Source of the DNA: Candidatus Micrarchaeota archaeon
GTDB lineage: Archaea > Micrarchaeota > Micrarchaeia > Anstonellales > Bilamarchaeaceae
Direction of reading: 5' to 3'
Assembly (NCBI GenBank): GCA_964435235.1
Contig: CAYSXZ010000057.1
Coordinates: forward strand, 1 to 50,582
DNA length: 50,582 nt
Positions 28,283 to 49,816 of this stretch are shown piece after piece (the stretch's first letter is position 1; the number at the start of each line of letters is the position of its first letter). The notes under the pieces are model-generated. The model searched no databases and was not told where the DNA came from. It saw nothing but the letters and a program-made list of their open reading frames with translations. The position numbers were made by a program, and so were the translations under genes.

Positions 28283-28325
28283 ACAGATTTTGTCAGGTTT
28301 TTAGGAAGGACAAAATCTGGTATAA
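28283..28325 (+). other. BHB mini-intron I5 (43 nt, loop AGGUUUUUAGGAAG) inside the sarcin-ricin loop (helix 95)
   Basis: Central helix gtac (28277-80) / gtat (28320-23). Bulges gaa and aag. 11-bp stem. Removal gives AGUACGA|GAGGAAC. Confidence 0.8.
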
Positions 28326-28545
28326 GAGGAACGGGGATCCGGCGCCTCTGGTTTACCGGTTGTGAATTGCACCGCCGGGCAGCTACGCGCCATGTCGATA
28401 AGACCTGAAAGCATCTAAGGTCGAAGCGACTCTCAAGACGAGGAGGCAAATGCCGCGGATAGCAGATCCGTTTGATAGGACCGGGGTGTAAGTGGTAAGG
28501 GAAACCGAGCCATTCAGCCTGCGGTTACTAAAGGCTTATTTCGAA

Positions 28546-28590
28546 ACCCATTACTGACCGTTGGGTACTTCCTTTTCTGTTATCTTTTTG
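28546..28590 (+). other. 3' strand of the pre-23S rRNA processing stem
   Basis: Complementary to 25113-25185 (see the 5' strand entry). Confidence 0.75.
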
Positions 28591-31123: not shown

Positions 31124-31124
31124 C

Positions 31125-31508: not shown

Positions 31509-31540
31509 ACCTATTTGTTTCTGCATTTTTAATTGCATTT

Positions 31541-33003: not shown

Positions 33004-33005
33004 CT

Positions 33006-34658: not shown

Positions 34659-34662
34659 GTAC

Positions 34663-35136
34663 TCAGCCTTTCAGAAGAGAATCGTGTTTTCCGCTGTCTA
34701 TCTCTTTTATAATCTCTTTGCCGTTTTTTCCATCTATCGTTACCCCCAAACTAACGCAGGTACCACAGACCTCTTTAAGCGTAGCTTTTAAGTCTTTGCC
34801 GAGCGAATTGCCTTTTGACCTGGCTATTTTTACGGCTTGTTCTATAGAGATGTTGCCTCCTGGCGCTTCTCTATTACCAGCTCCTTTTTCTATGCCTGCC
34901 TCTCTTTTCACGAGTTCTGCAGTTGGTGGTGTTCCGACTTCGATACGAAATGATTTTTTATCTGTGTCCACTATTACTTTTATCGGAACCTTCATACCAG
35001 CAAAATCTTTTGTAGCCTCGTTTATCTTTGAAACTACCTGCCCACCGTTTATGCCTAAAGGTCCAAGCGCTGGACCTAACGGCGGACCTGCAGTTGCCTT
35101 TCCCCCATCTACTATTGCACTGATGATCTTTTCCAT
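34663..35136 (-). CDS. rpl11: 50S ribosomal protein L11 (uL11)
   Basis: AGPPLGPALGPLGING and PPTAELVK motifs. Confidence 0.93.
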   Translation of the reverse strand: MEKIISAIVDGGKATAGPPLGPALGPLGINGGQVVSKINEATKDFAGMKVPIKVIVDTDKKSFRIEVGTPPTAELVKREAGIEKGAGNREAPGGNISIEQAVKIARSKGNSLGKDLKATLKEVCGTCVSLGVTIDGKNGKEIIKEIDSGKHDSLLKG

Positions 35137-35524
35137 TTTAATCTCCCGGTAAATTAGAATAGAGTTGATTAGCCTTTGCTTGATTAGATTTATAAATATT
35201 AATTACAATAGCATAACGCCCATGCAAGGTGATCAAATATGGTTGCTGTACAAATATCTAATCAAATACCTAATACTACAAATACGCAAGCCATAAAACC
35301 TAGGTCTTCTGATAGGTTGTTTAGACACCCGCCTCTTTCGATACATGAAGAAAAGACAGAAAAAATAAGAAGACCGATGATATTCATTGTAAAGGACAAC
35401 ATTACTGAAGATCTGCGGGATCGGGTAAAAAAAGAAACAAAAAACGAAAACGAAAAAAATGACGCTGACTGGCAGTATGTAAAAAGACTCGAGCGTAAAT
35501 TTAAGATGGAAGAGCGAAAAACAG

Positions 35525-37261: not shown

Positions 37262-37385
37262 TATAATCACACTCCAAACACGACAACGTAACGACGACAA
37301 TACGATGATGCCAAAATGTAATGATATCGATAGCAATATTATTTAAAGAGTTAGGGAATAATTAATTTCTCTTTAATGCGTCTTA

Positions 37386-37970
37386 ATGCGTCTGTCGAAG
37401 GGTGAGAAAATGATTGGTAAGATTGAATCGCAGAGGCTTTTGGATGGAAATAAAAGATATGTGGAAAATAAACTGACCGAAAAGAATATGCCCGAAACTA
37501 GAAAGCAACTCGTGTCTGGTCAGCATCCTTTTGCTACGGTGATAACATGCTCGGATTCCAGAGTTGTACCATCATACATATTCGACACGAATATCGGCGA
37601 GATATTCAAAATAGAAACTGCTGGGAATGTCCTAGATAAGGTTTCATTAGGAAGCCTAGAATATGGCGTAGACCACCTTAATACTCCGCTCGTCGTTATC
37701 CTCGCGCACACAAAGTGTGGCGCAGTTACTGCTGCATGCAGCGGAGGGCATGCTGAAGGAAACATCGCAACGATCGTAAAGAAGATAAAACCAGCAGCGA
37801 AAAAGGCAAAGAACGATATAGAAAAAGCAACAGATATAAACGCAATAAGAGTGAAAGAAGAGATATTGAGAAAGAGCGCTATTACAAAGAAAAGGGTTGA
37901 GGAAGGAAGAGTAAAAATTGTTGTTATGAAATATGACCTCGATACAGGAGAGGTAAAACTACTGGAGTAA
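37386..37970 (+). CDS. Beta-class carbonic anhydrase
   Basis: CSDSRV and HTKCGAV zinc-ligand motifs. The start may be the ATG at 37410. Confidence 0.88.
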   Translation: MRLSKGEKMIGKIESQRLLDGNKRYVENKLTEKNMPETRKQLVSGQHPFATVITCSDSRVVPSYIFDTNIGEIFKIETAGNVLDKVSLGSLEYGVDHLNTPLVVILAHTKCGAVTAACSGGHAEGNIATIVKKIKPAAKKAKNDIEKATDINAIRVKEEILRKSAITKKRVEEGRVKIVVMKYDLDTGEVKLLE

Positions 37971-37974
37971 TCAA

Positions 37975-39192
37975 ATGGCTGAAAAAACCAAGAGCGAGAA
38001 GCTTTACGAATTAAAAAAATGGGTGCGAACCCTTTCTGGATATATGGGCAGCGGAACGCAACTCATATCTGTCTACATACCCGCAGGCTCTCCGGTACAT
38101 GAGATGAGTAATAAATTAAGAGAAGAGATGAGTCAAGCAAGCAATATAAAGTCAAAGCAGACAAGGACAAATGTTTTAGGGGCGTTAGAAAGAATAATAA
38201 ACTACCTCAAACTTTTCAGACAAACGCCGCCAAACGGGCTTGCGGTATTCGCAGGAAACATTTCTGACAATCCGGCAAAAGTGGACATACAACTTTTTTC
38301 TATAGAACCGCCAGAACCGTTAAGGATAGGAGCGTATAGGTGCGATTCGAAATTCTTTCTCGAGCCGCTTCAGAATATGACTGAGACCAAGGATAGTTAT
38401 GGAGTAGTTGTGATGGATGGAAGAGAAGCAACCATCGCAATAATTCGTGGTACCGAAACAAGAATAATAAAGAAACTTACGTCAACAGCTCACGCTAAGA
38501 TAAGAAAGGGTGGGCAAAGTGCTCGAAGATATGAGCGCCTCATAGAGGAAAGCATAGAAAAGTATTACAAACGAGTCGGAGAAAGCATGGATGAAGCATT
38601 TCTTGGTAAGGTAAAGGGAGTTATAATAGGAGGACCTGGACCAACAAAAGATTTCTTCGTAAAGATGAGTCCCTTCAATTATCAGATAAAGGTGTTGGGC
38701 GTAGTTGATACAGGATATACAGATGAGTACGGGGTGCGTGAAGTTCTTGAAAAGAGTGAAAGTATATTGGCAGAACAAGAAGCAGTAAAAGAAAAGATGC
38801 TTGTGGACAAATTTATAAAAGAGGTTGTGGGCGAAGGACTTGCTACTTATGGTGAGAAACAGGTTCGCGAGGCGATAGAAACAAAACAGGCGGAAAGGAT
38901 TTTGCTTTCAGAAGGACTTGATTACATAATTGCAGAATACAAATGCCTATCGTGTAACTATATTGAGAGAAAGATAACTAGAGAAAAACCAGCTGAGAGG
39001 ATAATTTGCAAGAAATGTAATTCTGAAATGCGACTTGAAAATCAAAAATTGCTTATAGATGACCTCGAAGAGCTTGCAAAGCAGAATGAAATACCGGTAG
39101 AGATAATATCCACAAATACAACAGAAGGCGCTCAGTTCTTGGCAGGATTTGGAGGGATTGGCGCTTTCTTGAGATACAAAACAAGGTCTTAA
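37975..39192 (+). CDS. prf1: Peptide chain release factor aRF1
   Basis: NIKS stop-codon recognition motif, the GGQSARR peptidyl-hydrolysis motif, and a C-terminal zinc-ribbon insertion (CLSC...CKKC). Confidence 0.93.
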   Translation: MAEKTKSEKLYELKKWVRTLSGYMGSGTQLISVYIPAGSPVHEMSNKLREEMSQASNIKSKQTRTNVLGALERIINYLKLFRQTPPNGLAVFAGNISDNPAKVDIQLFSIEPPEPLRIGAYRCDSKFFLEPLQNMTETKDSYGVVVMDGREATIAIIRGTETRIIKKLTSTAHAKIRKGGQSARRYERLIEESIEKYYKRVGESMDEAFLGKVKGVIIGGPGPTKDFFVKMSPFNYQIKVLGVVDTGYTDEYGVREVLEKSESILAEQEAVKEKMLVDKFIKEVVGEGLATYGEKQVREAIETKQAERILLSEGLDYIIAEYKCLSCNYIERKITREKPAERIICKKCNSEMRLENQKLLIDDLEELAKQNEIPVEIISTNTTEGAQFLAGFGGIGAFLRYKTRS

Positions 39193-39199
39193 CTCTTTT

Positions 39200-39736
39200 T
39201 CATTTTTGTCTAAGACCGCACTGTCCTATGCCGTAATTCTCATTAACTCCGATTATTGCTGCTTTTGTGTAATATGTAGTATTAGAACCTTCCCTTATGT
39301 AAAGGCTGACGCTGTCAGGTCTATTAAGGATTTTTATACAGTTGCTTATTGTTTCTTTTTCAGTTTTTTCACTAATTCCTATATAGCAATCCTTGGCGTC
39401 AATAGACATATAGGTAACATCCCTTCCTGCAAAAGGAGCACTAGAAGCAAAATCTATGCCGCATTGCAAGATATTTCTTTTGACGATATCACTTGAAACA
39501 TTTCTTACATCCATTACGATATATGTCTTATTTGCAGTTCTAAATAGTTCAAGAAATGTTTCTTTGTTTATTTCTTGGCCCTTTTGAAACGTCTGTGAGC
39601 TACCATTTTCCAGAAAAAACAATCCGAAGAGTATAACCACTGCTACACCGAGTAGGAATACGATTATGGTCTTTACATCTCCTGATATCTCCATAATATC
39701 ACTCCTAGTTATTTGAATATTGTTGAAAGTGGACAC
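39200..39736 (-). CDS. Membrane-anchored hypothetical protein
   Basis: 178 aa with a single N-terminal TM. Overlaps the end of the upstream 710-aa ORF, so they are probably co-transcribed. Confidence 0.5.
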   Translation of the reverse strand: MSTFNNIQITRSDIMEISGDVKTIIVFLLGVAVVILFGLFFLENGSSQTFQKGQEINKETFLELFRTANKTYIVMDVRNVSSDIVKRNILQCGIDFASSAPFAGRDVTYMSIDAKDCYIGISEKTEKETISNCIKILNRPDSVSLYIREGSNTTYYTKAAIIGVNENYGIGQCGLRQK

Positions 39737-41841
39737 GCTGTGTAATAATCAGAAGGTGCATAAATCTCAGCTTTATTTAAATATGCTGTATAAAGTTTTG
39801 GCGCTTCAAGAGTTCCTGATGGATTGAGATAGATTACAGAATCCATGGCGTCTATCTCTCTGAGGCATGCGTCTAAGGTGGTTGAAGACGTGGTCGAACC
39901 CGAGGTTTTTATGCAGTTTCCTGCTCCTTCAAGGCTGTAGATGACTACTGTTTTGTTATTTTCTGCTATTGATTTTGCAACTGCTGCTCCGCAGGACCCC
40001 ATTGCTGTTTTTTGGGTTTCGGTTGCAAGAGCAGTGTCTACAACCACTGCAACGTTTTGCCTTTCGTTTAGGTCTACGAGAAACTCGTCTAATGTGGCAT
40101 GGGTGGACGTTTTTTGCATCATAACGAAGAGCATACTGGCGAATATCGCGATAACTATCGCCCCAAGTAAGAAACCGACTATAACAACGTACTTCATCTT
40201 CGAATAATTATATATCTTTATGAAGTAAAGGAAGAGAAGGAGCAGTATAGCAGTAAGAGAAAGGAAGACAAACAAACTAAAACCGCCAAAAACAATATTC
40301 TTGTTTTCCGGTATCTCCTTGACATTTGTAATGTTTGTTCTCGTTGCCAACGCTGCTATTCCACTATTAACCTTTCTTGCAAAACCTCTAAAATACAACA
40401 TTACCTTAGACATGCTTCCTGATTCTGCAGTTCCAAGAAGTGCCTGTTCTTCTTCAGCTAAGCGAATATAATTAGCTTTAAGTTCCTCGTATTCTGCAGG
40501 TGGTAAACCATTACCAAATCTTTTATTAAGTTCTGTAAAATTTTCTTTTATACCTGCGAGTTTTTCACTCTCGATCGGCCCTAGGTCTTTGGTGCTAATT
40601 TCAAAAAATATCATCTCTGCATAATTCTTTGCTGCCAGAGTCTCGTTGTAGATTTGATACATCGAAACGGCCGATTGCCGTACGTTGCTCACGAGTGCTG
40701 AATATTCTTCTATGTCGGCATCCAGTCCGGTAAAGTTCCCACTCCCTATGTCGCTTCTTATTTTTGTTCGAAGCTCGCTTAATCGCTCTATTTTCATGTT
40801 GAAAGATGTGTTTGCCACGAATGTTGATACGTTTCTTGCATAGCTCTCCACTACAAGTCCCTCTCTTTCTATCGGCGTAAACAACGTATCGTAATAAGAC
40901 GCCTTCGTTTGATTCTGGAAATGCTCAAGCCTAGTTATTGTATTATTATAGATAGTAGAAGATATCTGGGAATAGGATGCGAACGGTCTTACCTTTTCGG
41001 AGAGTGCATCAGTTTTCGTTTCCAATTCAGCAAGAACATTCTGGTCAAGATCGAAAGAAGGACAAAGAGCGTAGCATCTTAAATGACACGCACTTCTGTC
41101 TGCGCTATCGTTAAGGCGGGGAGTTCTAAATATTGTAGATTCTATGTCGTTTGCATACGTCCTAAGCGTAGGTATGGATGTTTTTAGGTATTCGATAGCT
41201 TCCACTATCGTGTCCCTATTCGCATTCCCTAGTTTCTCACTAATGTTCTGAAGGATAGAATCAGTACCATAACTCGCATAGGAAAATTGTTTAAGCGGCG
41301 CAAGCAATGGCTGATAAGAGCCTATTCCAAGTGCTTCACTGTACGCCTGATAAAGAAGTTTTGCGTTCATATCACATGAGGCATCATCGTGGCACCAAAG
41401 CTTCTCTCCGTTTACATCTACTCTCTTATCTGTAAAGAGAACTTCCCTGCATTTGTATTCTTCCATATTTTTCCAATCGTAACCGTTGTTTCTGCTCTCG
41501 TTGTATTTCCTTATCAAATCGTTTAGTTCATTCAACTCTTGTTGCGTCGGATAGTAGCGTTCTGAATAATAGTTATAAATGACAGCAGAGATTTCAGAGC
41601 TATCATTTACTATATTTCCGTTTTTAAGAAGGAAGGTAGGTGCACCGTTAAAATAAATTATAGAATAGGAAGTTCCGTTAGATGTGAAATCTTCTGATGT
41701 AACTGTAACAGTTCCAGTTCCTTCCGTAGCATAAAAATAATTAGATGCCACAAAAGGAAAAACAATCCCAGTCAACAGGAGTATTACTCCTAAGATAACA
41801 ACGAAATTCGGGCGCATCATAAGATAGCTATAAGAGAACAA
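39709..41841 (-). CDS. Large extracellular/membrane hypothetical protein
   Basis: 710 aa with an N-terminal TM, a long Asn/Ser/Tyr-rich ectodomain, and two TM helices around residues 520-580. No family recognised. Confidence 0.55.
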   Translation of the reverse strand: MFSYSYLMMRPNFVVILGVILLLTGIVFPFVASNYFYATEGTGTVTVTSEDFTSNGTSYSIIYFNGAPTFLLKNGNIVNDSSEISAVIYNYYSERYYPTQQELNELNDLIRKYNESRNNGYDWKNMEEYKCREVLFTDKRVDVNGEKLWCHDDASCDMNAKLLYQAYSEALGIGSYQPLLAPLKQFSYASYGTDSILQNISEKLGNANRDTIVEAIEYLKTSIPTLRTYANDIESTIFRTPRLNDSADRSACHLRCYALCPSFDLDQNVLAELETKTDALSEKVRPFASYSQISSTIYNNTITRLEHFQNQTKASYYDTLFTPIEREGLVVESYARNVSTFVANTSFNMKIERLSELRTKIRSDIGSGNFTGLDADIEEYSALVSNVRQSAVSMYQIYNETLAAKNYAEMIFFEISTKDLGPIESEKLAGIKENFTELNKRFGNGLPPAEYEELKANYIRLAEEEQALLGTAESGSMSKVMLYFRGFARKVNSGIAALATRTNITNVKEIPENKNIVFGGFSLFVFLSLTAILLLLFLYFIKIYNYSKMKYVVIVGFLLGAIVIAIFASMLFVMMQKTSTHATLDEFLVDLNERQNVAVVVDTALATETQKTAMGSCGAAVAKSIAENNKTVVIYSLEGAGNCIKTSGSTTSSTTLDACLREIDAMDSVIYLNPSGTLEAPKLYTAYLNKAEIYAPSDYYTACPLSTIFK

Positions 41842-41928
41842 CTATTTAAATGTTCTTTATACCGCTTAGGGTGCTCTTTAATCAAGAATAAGCAAAAATT
41901 TTAAACATTTTCAAATATAAACATAAAC

Positions 41929-42951
41929 ATGTCGATGGGGGGCGTGAACAACAAAAAACTTATGCTGCATTATTCAACGGCAAATTTAACAAAGAAAGAA
42001 AGAGGAATAGCGCAGGCTATTCTTCCTCTTCTTGAAGAAAAACTTGAGCATTCGGAACGAGTTAAGAAGAGCGCAGAAGAATTTCAAAAGATAGCAAAGA
42101 AGATTACGCGTTTCAGACTTTTTGAAACCCTTCGTAAGATGGGGTGGGAACCTAAAGATGCTTCTAAGACTGCACTTAATAGAGTAGTTCCAGACCTTAT
42201 ACCGAAGCGTACCATGGAGGAGGCGTGGGAGTTAGTTACGAAGAATATGGGTCTTGTAGACGCCGCAATAACTTACTCGAAATTGAATGATTATTTGAAA
42301 TGGGATAGTGAATATGTGCGAAGCATAATAATAGAACAGTTGTTCATGACGGCTCTTTACTGGGATAAAGAAAAAGGTGCGTTTTCTACGTATTTCTTTT
42401 CAACGATGAAAAAGTGCAGAAACCACCTAAGAGAGAAAGCGAGTCTGATACGATTGCCGATGCATGTAATCGGAAAACTGAATAGGATGGATATTGAAAA
42501 ACATAAAGAGCCAAACATCCGATCAAGCGAGCTTGCCAAACGCATGAATGTAAAGCCAGAAAAATTAAATGATCTAACGAAGCTGAAAAAAATACGTTAT
42601 GCAAAGGTATTAAATCTAAGCAGGCTTTTATATTCTGAGACAGATGAAAGCGATGATAAGATCTCGATGAGATTTAACTTAATAAAAGAAAACGAGCCAG
42701 ACTTAACCAATGCAATCGATCAAAAGAACCTAAAAAGAATTATCGAAAGAGTATTGAAGACTCTTGAACCACGCGAAGCAAAGGTTTTGAGGATGCGCTA
42801 CGATTTAGATGATGAAGGTGGAAAAACACTGGAAAAATGCGGTAATGAGTTTGGCGTTACTAGAGAAAGAGTAAGACAAATAGAAACTTGCGCACTTAAA
42901 AAACTCCGCCATTCGGCCTACTCTAAGATTCTCAGAGAATTTATTCTTTGA
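41929..42951 (+). CDS. Bacterial-type RNA polymerase sigma-70 family protein
   Basis: Region 2/3.0-like FSTYFFSTMKKCRNHLREKASLIRLPMHVIGKLNRM (compare [30 protein letters not shown]). Region 4.2-like LEPREAKVLRMRYDLDDEGGKTLEKCGNEFGVTRERVRQIETCALKKLRH. Confidence 0.85.
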   Translation: MSMGGVNNKKLMLHYSTANLTKKERGIAQAILPLLEEKLEHSERVKKSAEEFQKIAKKITRFRLFETLRKMGWEPKDASKTALNRVVPDLIPKRTMEEAWELVTKNMGLVDAAITYSKLNDYLKWDSEYVRSIIIEQLFMTALYWDKEKGAFSTYFFSTMKKCRNHLREKASLIRLPMHVIGKLNRMDIEKHKEPNIRSSELAKRMNVKPEKLNDLTKLKKIRYAKVLNLSRLLYSETDESDDKISMRFNLIKENEPDLTNAIDQKNLKRIIERVLKTLEPREAKVLRMRYDLDDEGGKTLEKCGNEFGVTRERVRQIETCALKKLRHSAYSKILREFIL

Positions 42952-42955
42952 ATAA

Positions 42956-43942
42956 TCATCTTTCTCGTTTTACTACAAAATCGGCTATCGATGTAAGAAT
43001 CCCTCTTCCTTTCTCATCTGTTATGCACTCAAGATTCTTTTTAGCTTCTTCTATGAATCGATATGCATGTTGCTGTGAATAATCTATAGATCCATATTTT
43101 CTGAAAAGATCTATCGCATATCTTATATCCTCTGTCTGGCTCGTATGCGATGAAAGTATATTAATTAATCTCTTCTTCTCATCTGACGTTGCATGCGCAA
43201 GGCAATGGACTACAATAAGAGTACGCTTGCCTTCTGTTATGTCTCCTCCAATCTCTTTTTGGTATTTGCTGAAATCACCTGCCACATTAAGAACGTCGTC
43301 TTGTATCTGAAAGGCCACTCCTATATTTTCTCCGAATTTCCTAAGTTCGGCGCATGTTCTCTTATTAGCCCCTCCGAGCATTGCACCGACTTCGCACGAA
43401 AGAGCTATGAGGGCCGCTGTCTTCTTTTTTATCATCTCAAAATATTCGTCTTCAGTGATGTCGAATCTTCCGCTATTCTCCCAATTAAGCTCCTGCCCCT
43501 GTCCTTCGACAACGTGTTTAAACGTTGAAGAGAACATTCTTTCAATGGCGCGAAATTTTCTACAGTCTAGCGGCGCATATGCAAGTTTATCCCATATGAT
43601 GGTATAAAGCGCATCTCCAGAATTAAGAGCAATAGGTACGCCATACAATCGATGAATGGTTGGTTCGCCGCGTCTGAATTGCGAATCGTCTTCTATGTCA
43701 TCATGGATAAGAGTAAAATTGTGAAACATTTCTATAAGAGCTGCCGGGAAAATGATTTCCTTACCTTTACCACCAACGGCATGATAGCAACTGATTGCAA
43801 GTGCCGGTCGTATCCTCTTCCCTCCCCGCTTTATGAAAGGAAAAAGCATACCATATATCTCCTTCGGTTCGTTCTCTAGCATCTTCTCGATTTCTTTCTC
43901 TACTTCCATCAATTCGGCAGCGATAGGTTCGTAAAAGTTCAT
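42956..43942 (-). CDS. idsA: Polyprenyl (geranylgeranyl) diphosphate synthase
   Basis: First DDxxD region LIHDDIEDDS and second FQIQDDVLN. Confidence 0.9.
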   Translation of the reverse strand: MNFYEPIAAELMEVEKEIEKMLENEPKEIYGMLFPFIKRGGKRIRPALAISCYHAVGGKGKEIIFPAALIEMFHNFTLIHDDIEDDSQFRRGEPTIHRLYGVPIALNSGDALYTIIWDKLAYAPLDCRKFRAIERMFSSTFKHVVEGQGQELNWENSGRFDITEDEYFEMIKKKTAALIALSCEVGAMLGGANKRTCAELRKFGENIGVAFQIQDDVLNVAGDFSKYQKEIGGDITEGKRTLIVVHCLAHATSDEKKRLINILSSHTSQTEDIRYAIDLFRKYGSIDYSQQHAYRFIEEAKKNLECITDEKGRGILTSIADFVVKRER

Positions 43943-44046
43943 AGAGAAATAAATCTATCAAAACCTTTATTAATTCTTTATTTTATTTATAGTACAGAAT
44001 AAAATAATAACCAACGCTTCTATCTTTTGCGCTTTCGGGTGGGTTT

Positions 44047-46092
44047 GTGGAAAACGAAGACATCTCTTCTATGGTATCCTTCTTCCATGATTTTTTTACG
44101 ACAGGATATAAAAAAAGAGTAAATGAACTCGAGATCTCCTATCCGGATAAAAAAAGTCTATATGTAAATTATAGCGAGTTTGAAAGGGAGTTTCCAGAAA
44201 TAGCTGATCTTCTCATAAAAAAGCCAGATGTTGTGATAAGGGCAGCTGAACAAGCGCTCGCTGAATTGAAACCCTACATACCAGGCGGAATAAAATTTGA
44301 ACCGCATGTTAGATTTGTTAATCTTCAATCTGATATATTTCTTATTGAGCATCTGAGTTCGGCAAACATAAACGAATTCGTCGCGTTTAAGGGAGTAGTT
44401 ACAAGAAGAGCTGATGTGATGCATAAAGTAAAAATTGCAGTTTACAGATGCGCTATGTGCAATTCAGAGATAAGGATTCCTGTTGATAGATCGTTTATTC
44501 CACCTAGGAGATGCAACGAATGTAAGAAAGTAGGTACAATGAGGCAGGACGAGGAAAGAAGCACATATGTAGATATTCAGCGCGCAGAGGTGCAGGAACT
44601 TCTTGAAAGAGTTAGGGGTGGTGCCCCTGCTGCTCGCGTAGAACTGCTTCTCGAAGACGACCTTGTTAATTCAATAGCGCCAGGAGATAATATAGAAATC
44701 GCTGGAATAATGAGGCTTAAACAGGCGATAAAGCTGAGACAGAAACAAGAACTTGTGTACGGCAGATATATCGAAGTGAATAGCACTAAAAGCCTTCAGA
44801 GGGATTTTGAGGAAATAGAAATAACAAAAGAGGATGAGGCACGAATAAAGGAACTTTCCAAGGATCCTAATATAAGAGATTACATCGTAAAATCTATAGC
44901 GCCGTCTATATACGGACATGATGAAGTGAAGTTGGCGCTTGCGCTTCAGCTCTTTGGTGGAACGAAAGGAAAAACACTAAAAGGCGGTGCGCCTATTAGA
45001 GACGACATCCACATTCTTCTTATCGGGGATCCAGGTTTGGCAAAGACCCGCTTTTTGCTAAGCGTTAACAAACTTGCTCCAAAAAGTATTTATGTCAGCG
45101 GAAAATCAGTAAGCGGAGTTGGACTTACCGTAAGTGCTGAGAAAGACGAACTTAGCGAAGGTGGCTGGACTCTGAAAGCAGGTGCGATAGTACTCGCCAG
45201 TGGTGGCTCAGTCCAGATAGACGAGTTTGACAAAATTGCAGAAGAAGACAGGTCTGCTCTGCATGAAGCACTTGAAACTCAAACTGTTTCTGTGGCCAAG
45301 GCAGGCATAGTCGCAAAGTTCAAAGCTAAGACATCTGTACTTGCAGCGGCTAATCCTAAATATGGAAGATTTGACCAGACTAAAAATCTTGCTGAGCAAT
45401 TCGACGTTCCGCCCACCTTGCTTTCTCGTTTTGACCTTATATTCCCAATAGTAGATGTTCTTGATGAGGAAAAGGATCTAAAACTCGCAGAGCACATACT
45501 TTCAATCCACAGAGGGGAAGAAAATACCGAAGAGGAAATACCCATTATAGAGACTGAACTAATTAGGAAATATATATCATATGCGAGGAGACATTGCTAC
45601 CCTAAGCTTACTAGGGAAGCATCAGAAAAAATAGAAGAATTCTACGTTCAATTGAGAAGAAAAAGCAAAGAGGCCGGCTCAGTGGCGATAACGCCAAGAT
45701 ATTTGGAAGGACTTGTAAGGCTCGCGGAAGCAAATGCAAAAATTAGATTGAGCGACACTGTAGATGCAGAAGATGCTGAAGTAGCGATAAAATTGTTTAA
45801 CTACGTTATGAAACAAATAATGATAGACCGAGAAACAGGTATGCTAGATGTAGATGTCGTAACAACCGGCAAGCCAAAATCAGCACGAGATAAGATGCAA
45901 AAGATAGACACAGTAAGAGAGATAATAAAGGAGCATTTGAAGCATGAGGATAGTGCAGATATCGAAGAAGTAGTCAGTGATGCTGCCTCATACGGCATAG
46001 AGGAAGACGAAACAAGAAGAATAATATCTGAGTTACTCAGACGCGGAGAGCTTTACGAAAAGGAGCAAGGTCATGTTAGAATTGTGAGGTAG
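44047..46092 (+). CDS. mcm: Replicative helicase MCM
   Basis: N-terminal zinc finger CAMC...CNEC, Walker A LLIGDPGLAKT, Walker B IDEFDK, arginine finger SRFDLIF. GTG start. Confidence 0.95.
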   Translation: MENEDISSMVSFFHDFFTTGYKKRVNELEISYPDKKSLYVNYSEFEREFPEIADLLIKKPDVVIRAAEQALAELKPYIPGGIKFEPHVRFVNLQSDIFLIEHLSSANINEFVAFKGVVTRRADVMHKVKIAVYRCAMCNSEIRIPVDRSFIPPRRCNECKKVGTMRQDEERSTYVDIQRAEVQELLERVRGGAPAARVELLLEDDLVNSIAPGDNIEIAGIMRLKQAIKLRQKQELVYGRYIEVNSTKSLQRDFEEIEITKEDEARIKELSKDPNIRDYIVKSIAPSIYGHDEVKLALALQLFGGTKGKTLKGGAPIRDDIHILLIGDPGLAKTRFLLSVNKLAPKSIYVSGKSVSGVGLTVSAEKDELSEGGWTLKAGAIVLASGGSVQIDEFDKIAEEDRSALHEALETQTVSVAKAGIVAKFKAKTSVLAAANPKYGRFDQTKNLAEQFDVPPTLLSRFDLIFPIVDVLDEEKDLKLAEHILSIHRGEENTEEEIPIIETELIRKYISYARRHCYPKLTREASEKIEEFYVQLRRKSKEAGSVAITPRYLEGLVRLAEANAKIRLSDTVDAEDAEVAIKLFNYVMKQIMIDRETGMLDVDVVTTGKPKSARDKMQKIDTVREIIKEHLKHEDSADIEEVVSDAASYGIEEDETRRIISELLRRGELYEKEQGHVRIVR

Positions 46093-46096
46093 TTAG

Positions 46097-46927
46097 ATGA
46101 GCCGGATCATACTTTCTATCGTCGCATTTTTTATATTATCCCAGATTATAGGAATTTATACTGGTATTGCTGTGCTGAACGACCTTTATTTCAACCCGTA
46201 TGTAAACATGCTCGTCGTTACCACGGATTCAGCGAATCCGACCAATGCAATATTTTTTATGTTGTATGTTGTATTGGGCGCTGTTGTAATGATAGTGTTA
46301 ATAAGAAAATTCATGCTTCATCTGATTTTTAGAGTAATTGAATTTATTTTACTCTCTACAGCATCCTCTATCGTCTTCTATTCTTTTCTAAGGATTTTTT
46401 ATGGATATGAGTTAAGCATGTTAGGTGGAATTTTTCTAGGTCTTCTACTTGCGTCTATAAAACTTTTGAGTCCTGCGTTCAAAAATCTTGCTGCTATTCT
46501 TGCAACTGGAGGCGTAGGAGTAATATTTGGAATTTCGTTGACACCGCTCCCGGCCATTATCTTCCTTGTTTTGCTTTCGCTTTATGATTACATAGCAGTT
46601 TTTAAGACAAGGCACATGATCGAATTCGCAGAATTTATAGTAAAAAAAGACCTTGCCTTTACTGTAACGTCAAAAGCGGTTATCGAAGGAAAGGAAAGAA
46701 GGCTTGATTTAGGCACTGGCGACTTGATAGCACCAATAATTCTTGAGGTCTCCACGCTCGCTTACCTTCCCGGGGCAACCCTTTTCGTCTTTCTGGGTGC
46801 AGTCATCTCTCTTGTTGTTTTTCTTCTTCTCGTTTGGAAGAGAAAGGTTGTTCTTCCTGCTCTCCCACCACTAGTCTTTGGGATGCTTCTATTTATGGTT
46901 ATAGGAAAGGCTTTAGGATTTTATTGA
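46097..46927 (+). CDS. Presenilin/signal-peptide-peptidase-like intramembrane aspartyl protease (A22 family)
   Basis: Polytopic, with the LYDYIAVF (YD), GTGDLIAP (GxGD) and LPALPP (PAL) motifs in the canonical order. Confidence 0.85.
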   Translation: MSRIILSIVAFFILSQIIGIYTGIAVLNDLYFNPYVNMLVVTTDSANPTNAIFFMLYVVLGAVVMIVLIRKFMLHLIFRVIEFILLSTASSIVFYSFLRIFYGYELSMLGGIFLGLLLASIKLLSPAFKNLAAILATGGVGVIFGISLTPLPAIIFLVLLSLYDYIAVFKTRHMIEFAEFIVKKDLAFTVTSKAVIEGKERRLDLGTGDLIAPIILEVSTLAYLPGATLFVFLGAVISLVVFLLLVWKRKVVLPALPPLVFGMLLFMVIGKALGFY

Positions 46928-46954
46928 TTACTGAGCAAAAGAGAAAAGGAATAA

Positions 46955-49711
46955 TTATTCAATGATGATTGCTGGTTTGTTTGGCATAGCATTCTTTGCT
47001 TTTTCATGTTTCGCTTCATGGTCCATAAGAACCTCGACATTACATAAGAATTCTGTTGCAAAGAAAGATTTTGCCTCCTTAAGGATTTCTAACTCTTCTT
47101 CTGTACTCATTATGTCTTGGAGTACGTAGATATTCTTTATCAGCGGCTTAAAGAATACTGGAATGTCTCTTATATATCGCTTCAGCAAAGGATCCTCTCG
47201 CGCAACTTTCATAGCTTTTTCAAACGATCTCTCTTTTTTGAGCAGTTCGTATGCCTTTCTCTTCCAGTCTCCAGCAACGCATATTGTTATTTTCTCAGGC
47301 ATCTTTCTTGTTTTTGTTTTTACAAGTGTGGCTATCTTTTCAATATCATCCCTTGTCTGTTTAACAAATTCTTCCGCTCTTTCTATATCATCATCAATTA
47401 CGTTTTCGTTGGCCTGAGGAAATTTCTCAAAGTCTACAAAGGTATTATGCCCAAGTCTCTCCCAAAACTCGTTTGCAATGTGCGGCATAAAAGGTGAAAT
47501 TGCTATCGTCCATTTTTCGAATATTTCTCTCAGATTCTTTTTATCAGCCCTTTTTATGTACCACTTCAAATCGGTTATAAAATCGTAGAAAAGTTCCATA
47601 GAAAGCCTGCGGAGGTCTAGCGTCTCATAAAACATTTCAGCATTCTTCAACCTACGATTGAACCGAGAGAGCATCCATCTATCTACCCTACTCATTGCCT
47701 GTTCCTTTTCCTTTGCCTTTATGGTTTCTTCGAGAAGTTCTTCTATAAATGTTACCCTCGATTTTACCCCTTCTGCGACGGTTTTGTTAAAATCGGTATC
47801 GCTAAGAAGGTCTGCTCCGCTGACAACAGAAAATCTTATTATATCTGCACCGTACTCGGAAATTGCCTTTCGTAATGGAAGGATGTTGCCCATACTTTTG
47901 CTCATCTTCATACCGTCCATTAAAACAAAGCCATTTGTGACTATCTGCTTAGGCCAAAACCTCTTTTCGAATATTGCCACATGATTAAAAACAAAAAGTG
48001 TAAGATGATTTCTCAATAAATCGCCTGCGCTATGCCTCGAATCGAGTGGATACCAGTACAGAAAGCTATCGCGTAATTTTTTCATTTTCGGGGTTCCGTT
48101 TCCTTTTCCAAGAAAAACATAATCAAAAAATTCTTGTGTGAGTTCACTCTCATCGAAATCTGAAAGAAGATGAGATATTGTGTAATATGCCATATATATT
48201 GTAGAATCTGCAAGCGCCTCTATCATCTTGCTTTCATCAAACGGAAAATGCGTTCCTAAACCTTTTGCCCTCGTGCACGGTCTTGTCTTTAACCAATCCA
48301 CCGTGTAGAGAAGAACATTCTTCGTTTCTTCGGGAATGATGCTCATAGAATTTATACATTCTTTTGCCTTTTCCTTCCAATCCGGTTTGCCGTAATCTAT
48401 GAACCATTGGTCCTGAAGGAGGTTAACAACGATCTTTTCTCCGCATCTACAGTACAAAGGAGCGTTTGCAAGTACGTAAATTTGGAATGCATTACCTTCT
48501 GCTACTAAATCCTCGCCGACCTTTTCTTTCGCTTCTATCACAGGCATACCTTTGTATCTTCCTACAAGCATTTTACCTTCGTGTGCTTCCCTCCTATAAA
48601 TTTCTTTTGTTGCTTTTTCTGCAAGCGGGTCGTTCTGATTCTTTACATTCATCCTCTCTACTTCTTCTTTAGCAGGTGCCTTTCCATAACCTGGAAGCTC
48701 TATTACTTGAGGCATTTCTATGCCCGCATTTCCTAAATCACGAAGTGCAAGGTAGTCGTATGGTGCGTGTGCGGGAACAGACATCACTATGCCTGTGCCT
48801 ATCTCTTCGTTTACAAAACTTGCCGGATAGACAGGAACTAATGCGCCAGTAGCTGGATTTTTCGCTTTCATCTTCAGCAACTTCTCTGCCGAGACGTCTT
48901 CCACGATATTAATTTCTAGCTGATAACTAAGAAGCTCGGCTGCCTTTTTCGCTAAATAAACAAACTCCCCGTTCAACCTTGCTCTCACGTATTTTACTTT
49001 TTGGTTAATCCATATGTTCGTAACACCGTAAATCGTCTCAGGTCTATAAGTTGTTACTATGAAAGAGCCGCTTCCGTCTTCGGAAGCAAATTTAATGATA
49101 GTAACGCGCTCAAGCTCAGGATCGATGTCTCCTTTTGTATCATGCGCACTAACTGCCTGCTTATCATTTGGACACCATGCAATAGGATATTCGCCCTTAA
49201 CCAGATAACCAAGTTCTTTAAGCTTGCGAAATTGCCACTGAATAAAACGATTGAATTTAGGGTCGGATGAATAGAATTTTCTTCTCCAATCTATGCTGTA
49301 GCCCATTTCTCGCATTCCTTCCTCTATCTCCTTGGAAAAATACATAACGAGCCCTTCAGGGTCTGCGAGCGTCTTTGCCTTTTCTTCAGAAATACCATAG
49401 ATGGCCGAGAAAACCTTGATAACTTCTGGGTCGCGTTCTGCAATCCTTTGCGCCATTGCTATCACAGGAGTACCTGTAACATGGAAGCCCATCGGAAAGA
49501 GAACATTGTATCCCTTCAGCCTTAAATATCTTACATAAATATCAGTAGTGGTATACGTTCTGGCGTGGCCGATGTGCTGAGGAGAATTTGGATAGGGAAA
49601 GGCAGCTGTAATGAATTTTTTTTGCCGCATGTCCGGTTCTGTCTCAAAGCATCTTTTCTCTTCCCACAACTTATTCCACTTCTTTTCAATCCTATTGACA
49701 GCCATAACCAT
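46955..49711 (-). CDS. leuS: Leucyl-tRNA synthetase, archaeal type
   Basis: HIGH motif PNSPQHIGHARTY and the KMSKS motif. Archaeal/eukaryal-type domain order. 918 aa. Confidence 0.93.
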   Translation of the reverse strand: MVMAVNRIEKKWNKLWEEKRCFETEPDMRQKKFITAAFPYPNSPQHIGHARTYTTTDIYVRYLRLKGYNVLFPMGFHVTGTPVIAMAQRIAERDPEVIKVFSAIYGISEEKAKTLADPEGLVMYFSKEIEEGMREMGYSIDWRRKFYSSDPKFNRFIQWQFRKLKELGYLVKGEYPIAWCPNDKQAVSAHDTKGDIDPELERVTIIKFASEDGSGSFIVTTYRPETIYGVTNIWINQKVKYVRARLNGEFVYLAKKAAELLSYQLEINIVEDVSAEKLLKMKAKNPATGALVPVYPASFVNEEIGTGIVMSVPAHAPYDYLALRDLGNAGIEMPQVIELPGYGKAPAKEEVERMNVKNQNDPLAEKATKEIYRREAHEGKMLVGRYKGMPVIEAKEKVGEDLVAEGNAFQIYVLANAPLYCRCGEKIVVNLLQDQWFIDYGKPDWKEKAKECINSMSIIPEETKNVLLYTVDWLKTRPCTRAKGLGTHFPFDESKMIEALADSTIYMAYYTISHLLSDFDESELTQEFFDYVFLGKGNGTPKMKKLRDSFLYWYPLDSRHSAGDLLRNHLTLFVFNHVAIFEKRFWPKQIVTNGFVLMDGMKMSKSMGNILPLRKAISEYGADIIRFSVVSGADLLSDTDFNKTVAEGVKSRVTFIEELLEETIKAKEKEQAMSRVDRWMLSRFNRRLKNAEMFYETLDLRRLSMELFYDFITDLKWYIKRADKKNLREIFEKWTIAISPFMPHIANEFWERLGHNTFVDFEKFPQANENVIDDDIERAEEFVKQTRDDIEKIATLVKTKTRKMPEKITICVAGDWKRKAYELLKKERSFEKAMKVAREDPLLKRYIRDIPVFFKPLIKNIYVLQDIMSTEEELEILKEAKSFFATEFLCNVEVLMDHEAKHEKAKNAMPNKPAIIIE

Positions 49712-49816
49712 GCTTAGTGATTAGTTATTGATACTTTTATAAAACATTCCTTAGAAATCCATCTACAAAGAAAGAGAAGAACTACATTACATTCGCTCTA
49801 TTTATTGAATCCGGAG

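What the first reader, a model, noticed from the sequence alone, without database searches (positions are those of the whole stretch)
41929..42951. Full-length bacterial sigma-70-family protein encoded in an archaeal chromosome
The 340-aa product has recognisable sigma region 2 through 3.0 (FSTY...LIRLPMHV) and a very good region 4.2 HTH (GVTRERVRQIE..ALKKLRH). Its neighbours are unambiguously archaeal (aRF1, GGPP synthase, MCM), and the archaeal RNA polymerase (RpoN is in this window) has no known sigma interface. Possible explanations:
- Horizontal acquisition and reuse as a stand-alone DNA-binding regulator.
- A leftover from a virus or mobile element.
- A factor that acts on a bacterial partner's polymerase.

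The N-terminal roughly 100 aa are unique.
Basis: partly seen in the sequence, partly recalled or inferred. Interest (0 to 1): 0.75.

Follow-up and report, generated by a model that had tools for sequence, protein, structure and literature searches.

The report
Remodelled sigma-70 relic in Micrarchaeota
A tiny symbiotic archaeon (DPANN, Micrarchaeota) carries a real, selected gene descended from a bacterial sigma factor; it has kept its DNA-reading end but lost the residues bacterial sigmas use to grip and open DNA with bacterial RNA polymerase, so it most likely works as an optional DNA-binding regulator rather than a true sigma factor.

Summary
ORF 41929-42951 (+) encodes 340 aa, homologous to primary bacterial sigma-70 from region 2.1 to the C-terminus (hhalign 100%, E 4e-40). 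It lies in a Micrarchaeia (DPANN) chromosome, and no chimeric join is seen.

- **Family:** it belongs to a rare Micrarchaeota sigma-like family, seen in about 17 lineages. The family shares an N-terminal helical module with no match elsewhere.
- **Lost:** the beta-prime-binding residues of region 2.2 and the DNA-melting residues Y425, W433 and W434.
- **Kept:** the sigma-4 helix-turn-helix, with the -35-reading residues R584, E585, R588 and Q589.
- **Selected but optional:** dN/dS is 0.23 in one member pair. Four sister contigs (about 89% DNA identity, same gene order) lack the gene cleanly (1,084 bp against 14 bp, no repeats). In another relative it sits at a different locus.
- **Not found:** bacterial-type promoters and TTGACA are not enriched, and no viral copies turned up.

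Best reading: an old bacterial acquisition reused as an accessory DNA-binding regulator. Sigma-70 genes in DPANN were reported in 2021 with no mechanism. This is therefore a variant of a known oddity, and its function is untested.

The parts
41929..42951 (+). Sigma-70-derived gene, 340 aa (stop codon 42949-42951)
   Evidence: ORF. Sigma-70 homology. AF2 model with pLDDT 76 whose top Foldseek hits are all primary sigmas.
41977..42228 (+). Family-specific N-terminal helical module (aa 17-100; invariant E74, P75, P92, R94, T95, A99)
   Evidence: Conserved in all family members. An HMM of the block hits only family members among the 390 proteins fetched. Not aligned to bacterial region 1.2 by hhalign. 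Folds alone with pLDDT 80, and Foldseek finds no significant PDB match (best E 4.3). The last ~10 residues align weakly with the segment just before bacterial region 2.1.
42229..42438 (+). Remodelled sigma-2-like domain (aa 101-170, regions 2.1-2.4)
   Evidence: Aligned to E. coli sigma-70 from residue 378. N383, F427, S428, T429 and Y430 equivalents are kept. L402, Q406, E407, G408 and N409 are replaced. Y425 is deleted. W433/W434 become S158/T159. Q437/T440 become K162/R164. Pfam Sigma70_r2 does not hit.
42439..42612 (+). Sigma-3-like part (aa 171-228, regions 3.0-3.1; motif LIRLPMHV)
   Evidence: Aligned by HMMER and hhalign. H455 is kept as H179; E458 is G182. The region is poorly conserved across the family.
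42613..42711 (+). Acidic, variable linker in the place of region 3.2 (aa 229-261)
   Evidence: AF2 pLDDT below 50. Gap-rich and variable in the family.
42712..42948 (+). Sigma-4 domain (aa 262-340, regions 4.1-4.2 HTH plus a primary-sigma-type C-terminal tail)
   Evidence: Pfam Sigma70_r4, E 8.7e-17. R312, E313, R314, R316 and Q317 correspond to E. coli R584, E585, R586, R588 and Q589. L551, R562, F563, L598 and L607 equivalents are kept in 12-15 of 15 members.
41864..41928 (+). The gene's own upstream region, with a TATA-like box TTTAAACA at 41900-41907, 29 nt before the ATG
   Evidence: Sequence. A 7/8 match to the archaeal TATA consensus at -29; similar boxes at -30 and -32 in L004 and L047. 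That this is the promoter is an inference.
41864..42947 (.). 1,084-bp segment (upstream region plus ORF) present in the window but replaced by 14 bp in four sister contigs
   Evidence: Same gene order without sigma in L027-L030. blastn breakpoints at window 41863/41864 and 42947/42948, with flanks 88.5-89.8% identical. No terminal inverted repeats and no target-site duplication.
39709..41841 (-). Left flank: 710-aa membrane protein with no known family. Not part of the sigma unit; it marks the conserved boundary.
   Evidence: No Pfam or PADLOC hit. A 701-aa orthologue lies directly next to GGPPS in the sister contigs. Its TATA box (TTTAAATA on the - strand, 41843-41858) is in the conserved flank.
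42956..43942 (-). Right flank: polyprenyl (GGPP-type) synthase, convergent with sigma, with 4 bp between the two stop codons
   Evidence: PF00348, E 1.7e-71. A relative more than 90% identical (P0425) lies on the sister contigs.

Best explanation
The gene is a genuine chromosomal member of a small sigma-like family seen here only in Micrarchaeota. The family descends from a bacterial primary-type (group 1/2) sigma-70 acquired long ago. In its archaeal hosts it kept the sigma fold and an intact sigma-4 helix-turn-helix. It gained a new ~90-aa N-terminal helical module. It lost the residues that bind the bacterial beta-prime clamp helices and that melt the -10 element.

The most likely mechanism is as follows.
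- The gene is transcribed from its own archaeal TATA-type promoter.
- The protein binds a specific duplex DNA site through the sigma-4 recognition helix. In this copy that helix still reads like the -35-binding helix.
- It modulates archaeal TBP/TFB/RNAP-dependent transcription of a few targets, as other bacterial-type HTH regulators do in archaea.
- The remodelled sigma-2 domain and N-terminal module serve as a protein-interaction or effector surface.

The gene is dispensable: it is present or absent between close species and occupies different loci in different lineages.

**Shown:** homology, the family, the residue pattern, purifying selection, the archaeal context and the presence/absence polymorphism.
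**Inferred:** DNA binding, a regulatory role and the promoter.
For: - **Homology from region 2.1 to the C-terminus of primary sigmas:**
- **The family:** full-length relatives with the same N-block (E 1e-56 to 1e-30), well separated from bacterial hits.
- **Distribution:** every named or placed member is Ca. Micrarchaeota. These are P0129 and P0130 and 5 of 5 true hits in 185,579 GTDB species genomes. Five more true hits came from JGI metagenomes.
- **Archaeal neighbours in other loci:** Nop10, eIF2-alpha, PAC2, archaeal ThrRS editing domain, TrmB.
- **Host taxon:** Micrarchaeia / Anstonellales / Bilamarchaeaceae.
- **Long residence:** codon usage r = 0.89 and GC 0.383, like the neighbours. 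Sigma GC tracks host GC across 14 loci, r = 0.96.
- **Purifying selection:** dN/dS 0.23 at dS 0.45, measured on one pair of family members.
- **Residues kept:** sigma-4 -35-reading and core residues in 9-15 of 15 members, and all of them in the window copy.
- **Residues lost:** L402, Q406, E407, G408, N409, Y425, W433, W434, Q437 and T440, all invariant in 12 bacterial references, are replaced or deleted family-wide.
- **No bacterial-type promoters:** 36 sigma-70-type promoter matches against 44.4 +/- 6.5 expected. TTGACA count is below the permutation median.
- **Archaeal TATA-like box at -29**.
- **Accessory status:**
Against: - No binding site, target gene or expression data exist. The regulator role is an inference from which residues are conserved.
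- Sigma-4 alone binds DNA weakly in bacteria.
- Several members have altered recognition helices (L009, P0126) or lack the HTH altogether (L011). DNA binding through region 4.2 is therefore not universal in the family.
- The near-invariance of N383, F427, S428, T429 and Y430 equivalents, and of the new N-module, shows that sigma-2 has a selected function this model leaves vague.
- A distance tree on regions 2-4 did not recover strict family monophyly: 6/100 bootstraps, with one intruder, P0145. Single acquisition therefore rests on the shared N-block and the shared Y425 deletion.
Confidence: 0.5

Rival explanations
1. It is a true RNAP-binding specificity or initiation factor for the archaeal polymerase. 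The remodelled sigma-2 surface plus the new N-terminal module dock on the archaeal clamp coiled-coil (the site used by TFE and Spt4/5). Sigma-4 reads an upstream DNA element, giving an alternative promoter class.
For: - The whole sigma architecture (2.1 to 4.2), not just the HTH, has been preserved under purifying selection.
- Region 2.2 is not degenerate. It is replaced by a new, family-conserved motif (MFxAALYWD, with F139 in 15/15 and A142 in 14/15).
- The N-module has invariant residues.
- F419, E420, R423, S428, T429 and Y430 equivalents are conservatively kept. In my recollection of the literature these line the base-binding pocket of sigma-2.
- From general knowledge: the clamp coiled-coil is structurally conserved between bacterial and archaeal RNAP.
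Against: - The gene is dispensable between species at 89% nucleotide identity, which is unusual for a basal factor.
- No enrichment of -35/-10-like promoter pairs or of TTGACA.
- The Trp dyad and Y425, needed for melting, are gone.
- Region 3.2 is variable and disordered.
- No complex prediction could be run.
Confidence: 0.15
2. It is cargo of the flexible genome: a self-contained promoter-plus-gene cassette. It moves between Micrarchaeota genomes or comes from their viruses, and it acts in virus-host or inter-genome conflict rather than in housekeeping regulation.
For: - Clean 1,084-bp presence/absence between sister species.
- A different locus in relative L047, whose flanking genes are 60-75% identical in protein while the two sigmas are only ~33% identical.
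- Fast evolution: within-family distance 1.74 against 0.91 among bacterial sigmas.
- Toxin-antitoxin genes near some copies: HicA in L026, and PIN/RHH ~8 kb away in L004.
- Divergent 'rpoS' genes have been reported on DPANN viruses and a prophage (PMC12647753).
- The best PADLOC and NCBIfam match by E-value is MzaA, the sigma-domain protein of an anti-phage system.
Against: - No integrase, transposase, terminal inverted repeats or target-site duplication at the indel.
- No family member in IMG/VR by two DNA signatures and a protein scan.
- The MzaA match covers only the shared sigma C-terminus (110.7 bits against a cutoff of 800), and the neighbours have no defence-system hits.
- GC and codon usage are fully host-like in every lineage.
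- A simple deletion in the sister lineage explains the polymorphism equally well.
Confidence: 0.15
3. It is a decaying, functionless remnant of an old transfer from bacteria.
For: - Canonical sigma functional residues are lost.
- The gene is absent from sister species.
- One member (L011) has lost region 3 and the region 4.2 HTH.
- The family evolves fast.
Against: - Intact full-length ORFs in about 17 diverged lineages.
- dN/dS 0.23.
- Invariant family-specific residues, including a new N-terminal module that folds confidently.
- Its own TATA-like promoter.
Confidence: 0.05
4. It is exported to, or acts in, a bacterial partner and redirects that partner's RNA polymerase.
For: - DPANN archaea are episymbionts.
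- Sigma-4 flap-pocket and -35-reading residues are retained.
Against: - The region 2.2 residues that hold sigma on beta-prime are replaced family-wide, and the melting residues are lost.
- Cultured Micrarchaeota have archaeal (Thermoplasmatales) hosts (PMC8975820, abstract listed).
- No secretion genes are adjacent.
- No secretion signal is apparent from reading the N-terminal sequence; no signal-peptide predictor was run.
Confidence: 0.03
5. It is an assembly chimera or bacterial contamination inside an archaeal contig.
For: - The nearest relatives outside the family are bacterial RpoD.
- The segment is missing from sister contigs.
Against: - The segment is only 1,084 bp, with archaeal homology resuming within bases on both sides.
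- GC, GC3 and codon usage are the same as the host's.
- Relatives sit in other Micrarchaeota contigs from many samples.
- The same protein is recorded on a separate 13.3-kb contig. That contig length also appears for the window's exact LeuRS sequence and for an MCM cluster member. That these are one contig is an inference.
Confidence: 0.02

Closest known systems
Bacterial primary / primary-like sigma-70 factors (RpoD, SigA; groups 1-2)
   Same: - Homologous from region 2.1 to the C-terminus (hhalign 100%, E 4e-40).
- Same all-helical sigma-2 / sigma-3 / sigma-4 fold.
- Region 4.2 recognition helix TRERVRQIE and the primary-sigma C-terminal tail LRH..S..L..F are kept.
   Different: - No regions 1.1 or 1.2: no PF03979 or PF00140 hit, and RpoD equivalog scores are ~100 bits against cutoffs of 354-800.
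- A new N-terminal module.
- Region 2.2 beta-prime-binding residues replaced, Y425 deleted, W433/W434 lost, and the -12 and extended -10 readers changed.
- The host has archaeal RNAP.
- The gene is dispensable.
Sigma-70 homologues reported in DPANN archaea (fam00359, Castelle et al. 2021, PMC8204110)
   Same: - Sigma-70-class genes on contigs verified as DPANN.
- No anti-sigma partner.
- Mechanism stated as unclear.
   Different: - That report stresses Woesearchaeota. This family was found only in Micrarchaeota.
- I could not test whether it belongs to fam00359, because the supplements held here do not list it.
- The residue-level remodelling, the N-module and the presence/absence polymorphism are not mentioned in that paper's sigma passage.
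Stand-alone bacterial-type HTH regulators in archaea (TrmB, Lrp/AsnC, PadR, LuxR/GerE-like): 'works like', not membership
   Same: - Proposed mode of action: a bacterial-type HTH binds near an archaeal promoter and modulates TBP/TFB/RNAP.
- Sigma region 4 annotations co-occur with LuxR-type HTH annotations in archaeal proteins (PMC5413776).
   Different: - This protein keeps a full sigma-2 / sigma-3 scaffold upstream of the HTH.
- No ligand-binding domain is recognised.
- No DNA-binding data exist.
MzaA (sigma-70-domain protein of the MZA anti-phage system)
   Same: Best NCBIfam and PADLOC hit by E-value, over the sigma C-terminal half.
   Different: - 110.7 bits against an equivalog cutoff of 800.
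- Only model positions 545-714 of 726 match.
- The two upstream neighbours scanned against PADLOC gave no hit, and no other neighbour has a defence-related Pfam domain.
Divergent 'rpoS' auxiliary genes on DPANN viruses / prophage (Nat Commun 2025, PMC12647753)
   Same: Sigma-like genes, highly diverged from bacterial ones, linked to DPANN flexible genomes.
   Different: - The window copy lies between housekeeping genes, with no prophage features.
- No family member was found in IMG/VR.
- The sequence relationship to those viral genes is untested.

Membership tests
Sigma-70 family (sequence family) | Whole-protein score above the curated cutoff of a sigma-70 family model | tested here: met
   TIGR02937: 56.4 bits against a cutoff of 42.9. 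PF04545: 60.8 against 24.1.
Sigma-70 family (sequence family) | Region 2 domain present | tested here: inconclusive
   Pfam Sigma70_r2 does not hit the window protein or family members at E 0.01. hhalign and the PDB profile search do align regions 2.1-2.4, and the fold matches.
Functional sigma factor (bacterial holoenzyme subunit) | Region 2.2 residues that bind the beta-prime clamp helices (E. coli L402, D403, Q406, E407, N409, M413) | tested here: not met
   In the window these positions are E128, Y129, S132, I133, I135 and F139. Family-wide they are replaced, while L402, D403, Q406, E407, G408 and N409 are invariant in the 12 bacterial references. M413 varies among I/M/L in bacteria and is F in 15/15 family members.
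Functional sigma factor (bacterial holoenzyme subunit) | Region 2.3 aromatic residues for -10 melting (Y425, Y430, W433, W434) | tested here: not met
   Y425 is deleted in 15/15 members. W433/W434 are S158/T159 in the window, and only one W occurs at either position across the family. Y430 (Y155) and T429 are kept.
Functional sigma factor (bacterial holoenzyme subunit) | Region 4.2 HTH with -35-reading residues (R584, E585, R588, Q589) | tested here: met
   R312, E313, R316 and Q317 in the window. Kept in 9-12 of 15 family members.
Functional sigma factor (bacterial holoenzyme subunit) | A cognate bacterial-type core RNAP in the same genome | not testable with these tools
   Only 50.6 kb is available. 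It carries archaeal RpoN and no bacterial rpo gene. A complete genome is needed.
Functional sigma factor (bacterial holoenzyme subunit) | Sigma-70-type -35/-10 promoters in the genome | tested here: not met
   36 matches against 44.4 +/- 6.5 in shuffles over 31000-50582. TTGACA occurs 13 times in total and once in intergenic DNA, below the permutation median. The sample is small.
Group 1 primary sigma (RpoD/SigA equivalogs) | Regions 1.1 and 1.2 present, and an equivalog-level score | tested here: not met
   No PF03979 or PF00140 hit. Best RpoD equivalog score is 103.8 bits against a cutoff of 555. The N-terminus is not aligned to region 1.2.
DPANN sigma-70 homologues (Castelle et al. 2021) | Sigma-70-class gene on a contig whose other genes place it in DPANN archaea | tested here: met
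   Archaeal markers in the window. Cluster mates are named Ca. Bilamarchaeaceae, in Micrarchaeia.
DPANN sigma-70 homologues (Castelle et al. 2021) | Membership of their protein family fam00359 | not testable with these tools
   The supplements held here have no fam00359 entry.
MZA anti-phage system (MzaA) | Full-length MzaA match, and partner Mza genes adjacent | tested here: not met
   110.7 bits against a cutoff of 800, C-terminal region only. The 710-aa and 178-aa upstream neighbours have no PADLOC hits.
Mobile element / prophage cargo | Integrase or transposase, terminal repeats or target-site duplication, or viral homologues | tested here: not met
   No TIR or TSD at the 1,084-bp indel. 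The neighbours are housekeeping genes. No family member in the viral collection. PHROGs hits only the generic sigma family.

The most novel reading that the evidence does not exclude
A bacterial sigma factor was captured by Micrarchaeota and re-engineered to work with the archaeal, Pol II-like RNA polymerase. The new region 2.2 surface and the added N-terminal module would dock on the archaeal clamp. Sigma-4 would read an upstream element. The result would be an optional, sigma-style promoter-specificity subunit operating beside TBP and TFB.
Probability: 0.1. Interest if true: 0.9.

Novelty: new variant of a known kind. Interest (0 to 1): 0.5.

Why it matters
Sigma factors and the TBP/TFB system are the textbook divide between bacterial and archaeal/eukaryotic transcription initiation. 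A sigma descendant kept under selection for a long time in an archaeal lineage raises a concrete question: what can a sigma scaffold do without its polymerase?

This family gives that question specific, testable handles:
- which surfaces were kept (the sigma-4 DNA reader, and part of what I recall as the sigma-2 base pocket);
- which were rewritten (the beta-prime interface);
- which were added (the N-module).

If it is only a regulator, it is a clear case of domain reuse after inter-domain transfer in genome-reduced symbionts. If it touches archaeal RNAP, that would be a new mode of archaeal promoter selection.

The clean presence/absence between sister species also offers natural knock-out comparisons in metatranscriptomes.

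Tried and rejected
- **Word-indexed profile searches.** The full-family profile was swamped by bacterial RpoD through region 4. The N-block-only profile returned nothing. The family was instead found by the exhaustive HMMER search and by a hand-made degenerate DNA pattern.
- **Independent 13.3-kb contig carrying the same sigma.** Three look-ups found nothing on record. Independent-assembly support therefore rests only on cluster metadata.
- **N-block as diverged region 1.2.** Not supported by hhalign. Only the last ~10 residues align weakly with the pre-2.1 segment.
- **Fold of the N-module.** No PDB match.
- **Bacterial-type promoters or -35 hexamer enrichment.** None.
- **A universal partner gene (anti-sigma-like).** None. 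TrmB, SDR, PolX and HEAT-repeat neighbours each recur only in sub-clades.
- **Viral origin.** No viral homologues.
- **Defence system.** Only a generic match to the sigma part of MzaA.
- **Donor lineage.** Unresolved. Bacterial hits at 33-45% identity span Proteobacteria, Firmicutes, Actinobacteria and CPR.
- **Strict monophyly in an NJ tree of regions 2-4.** Not recovered: 6/100 bootstraps, one intruder.
- **fam00359 in the supplements of the 2021 paper.** Not found.
Full report
**1. Observation**

Several independent methods show sigma-70 homology:
- Pfam Sigma70_r4 hits aa 275-328 (E 8.7e-17).
- NCBIfam TIGR02937 scores 56.4 bits against a cutoff of 42.9, and RpoD_Cterm matches aa 146-339 (E 6.9e-28).
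- phmmer against PDB finds only sigma factors; the top hits are RpoD/SigA chains from holoenzyme structures, with isolated sigma-4 domains and RpoS lower in the list.
- The family profile aligns to E. coli sigma-70 residues 378-611.
- hhalign against 12 compact bacterial SigA/RpoD proteins gives probability 100%, E 4.1e-40, over query residues 100-340.

An AlphaFold2 model built from the family alignment is all-helical (pLDDT 76.4, pTM 0.56). Its 50 best Foldseek hits are all primary sigma factors, aligned over about 306-366 columns. TM-scores are about 0.3, probably because the domain arrangement of a free model differs from the holoenzyme-bound form. Pfam's region 2 and region 3 models do not reach E 0.01, either here or in other family members.

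**2. Host and contiguity**

The window is an ordinary archaeal chromosome segment. It carries:
- RpoN at 4-201 (-) and the L18e-L13-S9 operon;
- archaeal 23S rRNA, Hjc and L11;
- aRF1, MCM, a presenilin-type peptidase and LeuRS.

Proteins more than 90% identical to the window's SAM synthetase are named Candidatus Bilamarchaeaceae archaeon. That taxon sits in Archaea; Nanobdellati (DPANN); Micrarchaeia; Anstonellales.

The sigma gene's GC (0.383), GC3 (0.378) and codon usage (r = 0.89 with the other genes) are typical of the window. Its upstream region has TTTAAACA 29 nt before the ATG, a 7/8 match to the archaeal TATA consensus. That fits a leaderless archaeal transcript; this is an inference. 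Nothing suggests a chimeric join.

**3. The gene belongs to a family seen only in Micrarchaeota**

The word-indexed search found only the protein itself, then bacterial RpoD at about 35% identity over the C-terminal 55%. The exhaustive HMMER search of 1.84 billion cluster representatives found about a dozen proteins of 281-377 aa (E 7.7e-56 to 1.4e-29; the 541-aa P0128 and 281-aa P0132 in that range lack the N-block). Most match over most of their length, including the N-terminus, and they score well above the bacterial hits at about 1e-21.

- Eleven of these plus the query align with invariant E74, P75, P92, R94, T95, A99, N106, F139, T154 and L279. Their N-terminal consensus is EPxDAxxTxL..VVPDLLPxRTxxEAWxxVxENxGL.
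- An HMM of the N-block hits only these proteins among the 390 fetched.
- Two members are annotated by NCBI as 'sigma-70 family RNA polymerase sigma factor [Candidatus Micrarchaeota archaeon]'.
- A hand-made degenerate DNA pattern for the invariant block gave 17 hits in 185,579 GTDB species genomes. Five are Ca. Micrarchaeota MAGs and are true members by tblastn. Twelve are scattered bacteria with no similarity, in line with my rough estimate of about 17 chance matches.
- The same pattern gave 5 true members among 18 hits in JGI metagenomes.
- Other members' neighbourhoods are archaeal: Nop10, eIF2-alpha, PAC2, archaeal ThrRS editing domain, TrmB.
- Across 14 loci, sigma GC tracks the GC of the rest of the contig (r = 0.96 over a range of 0.35-0.57). 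That indicates long residence, not recent import from bacteria.

**4. What was kept and what was lost**

I aligned 15 family members with 12 bacterial references and used E. coli numbering; the offset was checked on FSTYATWW and TRERVRQIE. The functional roles given for individual residues come from my knowledge of the sigma-70 literature, not from a tool result.

| Region | E. coli residues | State in the family |
|---|---|---|
| 2.2, beta-prime clamp-helix contacts | L402, Q406, E407, G408, N409 (invariant in bacteria) | Replaced by E/D, S/Q, I/V, V/I and V/T/R. Window: E128, S132, I133, I134, I135 |
| 2.3, melting | Y425 | Deleted in 15/15 |
| 2.3, melting wedge | W433, W434 | Lost. Window: S158, T159 |
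| 2.4, -12 readers | Q437, T440 | Become basic residues |
| 3.0, extended -10 readers | H455, E458 | Kept in only 4 and 3 of 15 |
| 3.2 | linker | Variable and disordered |
| 2.1 and 2.3 | N383, F427, S428, T429, Y430 | Near-invariant |
| 2.2 (new motif) | M413, V416 positions | New conserved motif MFxAALYWD (F139 15/15, A142 14/15) |
| 4.1-4.2 | L551, R562, F563, R584, E585, R586, R588, Q589, L598, L607 | Kept in 15, 12, 14, 12, 9, 13, 11, 10, 12 and 12 of 15; the window has all but F563, which is Y291 (R312, E313, R314, R316, Q317) |

The primary-sigma C-terminal tail is also recognisable. The first ~90 residues are not aligned to bacterial region 1.2. They fold on their own (pLDDT 80, pTM 0.66) and have no significant PDB match (best E 4.3).

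**5. Selected but optional**

- The closest pair with DNA available (the L019 member and P0127, 80% identical) gives dN/dS = 0.23 at dS = 0.45.
- Four sister contigs carry a GGPPS more than 90% identical to the window's. They have the same gene order, LeuRS-SPP-MCM-GGPPS-701 aa-167 aa-aRF1-CA-GlmS-L11-PQQ, and no sigma gene.
- blastn puts the breakpoints at window 41863/41864 and 42947/42948, with flanks 88.5-89.8% identical. 1,084 bp (the upstream region plus the ORF) are replaced by 14 bp. There are no terminal inverted repeats and no target-site duplication.
- No protein 40-99% identical to the window's sigma appears among the 120 listed hits of the search of the 5.8-billion-sequence collection.
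- In a more distant relative (L047; SDR, CDP-alcohol transferase and two more genes syntenic at 60-75% protein identity), a sigma only ~33% identical lies between SDR and the transferase. The window has an unrelated 212-aa ORF in that slot.
- Neighbours recur only within sub-clades: TrmB divergently upstream (L010, L019, L026), SDR plus a ~250-aa unknown (L041, L047), and PolX plus HEAT-repeat proteins (L005, L025/L045).
- Whether the window gained the gene or the sisters lost it cannot be decided from these data.

**6. Tests of specific ideas**

- **Bacterial-type promoters.** Not enriched: 36 matches against 44.4 +/- 6.5 expected. TTGACA occurs 13 times, once in intergenic DNA, below the median of letter permutations.
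- **Virus or mobile element.** Two DNA signatures and a protein scan of IMG/VR found no member. PHROGs hits only the generic sigma family. No mobility genes are adjacent.
- **Defence system.** The MzaA match covers only the shared sigma C-terminus and is far below cutoff (110.7 bits against 800). The neighbours have no PADLOC hits.
- **Single origin.** An NJ tree of regions 2-4 places all 14 full-length members on one side of a split with one intruder (P0145). Strict monophyly has only 6/100 bootstraps. Within-family distance (1.74) is about twice that among the bacterial sigmas (0.91), so the data are saturated. The shared N-module and the shared Y425 deletion are the better evidence for one origin.

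**7. Interpretation**

The conservation pattern argues against a canonical sigma role, because the interface and melting residues are gone and no bacterial core polymerase is in sight. It also argues against decay, because of purifying selection, new conserved motifs and intact ORFs in about 17 lineages.

- **Regulator (confidence about 0.5).** The best-preserved functional surface is the sigma-4 HTH. The most economical mechanism is sequence-specific DNA binding that modulates archaeal TBP/TFB/RNAP transcription of a limited, dispensable regulon.
- **Archaeal RNAP factor (about 0.15).** The conserved, rewritten sigma-2 surface and the added N-module are not explained by the regulator model. 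They keep alive the more exciting reading that the protein docks on archaeal RNAP.
- **Flexible-genome or conflict role (about 0.15).** Patchy distribution, shifting loci and fast evolution keep this reading alive too.

**8. Relation to what is known**

Castelle et al. 2021 (PMC8204110) reported sigma-70 genes in DPANN genomes, especially Woesearchaeota. They ruled out mis-binning, found no anti-sigma factors and called the mechanism unclear. A 2025 study reports divergent 'rpoS' genes on DPANN viruses and a prophage (PMC12647753). NCBI already labels family members as sigma-70 family proteins.

The headline claim, a sigma in an archaeon, is therefore not new. What this analysis adds is:
- the definition of a sub-family found only in Micrarchaeota;
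- its residue-level remodelling;
- its new N-terminal module;
- its accessory, position-shifting behaviour.

I rate it a new variant of a known kind, with interest 0.5.

Noticed in passing
window 3454-4614 (-): The SAM synthetase is the bacterial/eukaryotic MetK type (PF00438, PF02772, PF02773). From my own knowledge, most archaea use a different, archaeal-type enzyme. This would be another bacterial-type gene in this DPANN genome. Its >90% cluster mates are named Ca. Bilamarchaeaceae.
   Followed up: partly
window 12781-18317: A low-GC patch (15001-16000, GC 0.278) holds a Fic/DOC gene at 14962-15939 (-) with GC 0.28 and GC3 0.20. It is flanked by an AbiEii toxin (12781-13602, -) and a PIN gene (17919-18317, -). 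This looks like a small toxin/defence islet, possibly foreign.
   Followed up: no
window 16541-16629 (+): ARAGORN calls an 89-nt tRNA-like gene with an undetermined anticodon. It is the only tRNA call in 50 kb, and it lies next to the low-GC islet.
   Followed up: no
window 25236-28549 (+): The archaeal 23S rRNA gene matches the full model (1-2987) but spans 3,314 nt, about 330 nt extra. No 16S or 5S rRNA was detected anywhere in the window, so the rRNA gene appears unlinked.
   Followed up: no
window 5714-7821; L047 1467-4722; L041 155-3289: The slot between the SDR gene and the CDP-alcohol phosphatidyltransferase gene is variable. The window has a 212-aa ORF with a weak HEAT match. Relatives L047 and L041 have a sigma-family gene plus a conserved ~250-aa protein of unknown function, and in L047 the block is inverted.
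   Followed up: partly
L011 6450-7358 (+): One Micrarchaeota family member (302 aa) keeps the N-terminal module, the sigma-2-like part and region 4.1. It lacks region 3 and the region 4.2 helix-turn-helix. This is a truncated or degenerating variant.
   Followed up: partly
L010 6367-7170; L019 4503-5264; L026 389-1150: A TrmB-family regulator lies divergently next to the sigma-like gene in three loci from two diverged sub-lineages. The TrmB proteins are 31% identical between the lineages. This may be a regulatory pairing.
   Followed up: partly
L005 11210-11590; L025 6798-8386; L041 2750-3289: Small HEAT-repeat proteins lie immediately downstream of, and co-oriented with, the sigma-like gene in several loci. 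They show no mutual BLAST similarity at 1e-4.
   Followed up: partly
window 39709-41841 (-) and 39200-39736 (-): A 710-aa membrane protein and a 178-aa protein next to the sigma gene have no above-threshold Pfam or PADLOC family (the 178-aa ORF has only a sub-cutoff DcuA_DcuB match). Both are conserved in the sister genomes, as 701-aa and 167-aa proteins.
   Followed up: no
L001 5800-10133; L003 1361-3779: Two short bacterial sigma factors that covered more of the query (P0067, P0091) sit in mobile-looking contexts. One is next to a 1,073-aa DEAD/ResIII helicase and YqaJ/DUF932 genes. The other is next to a phage-type integrase.
   Followed up: no
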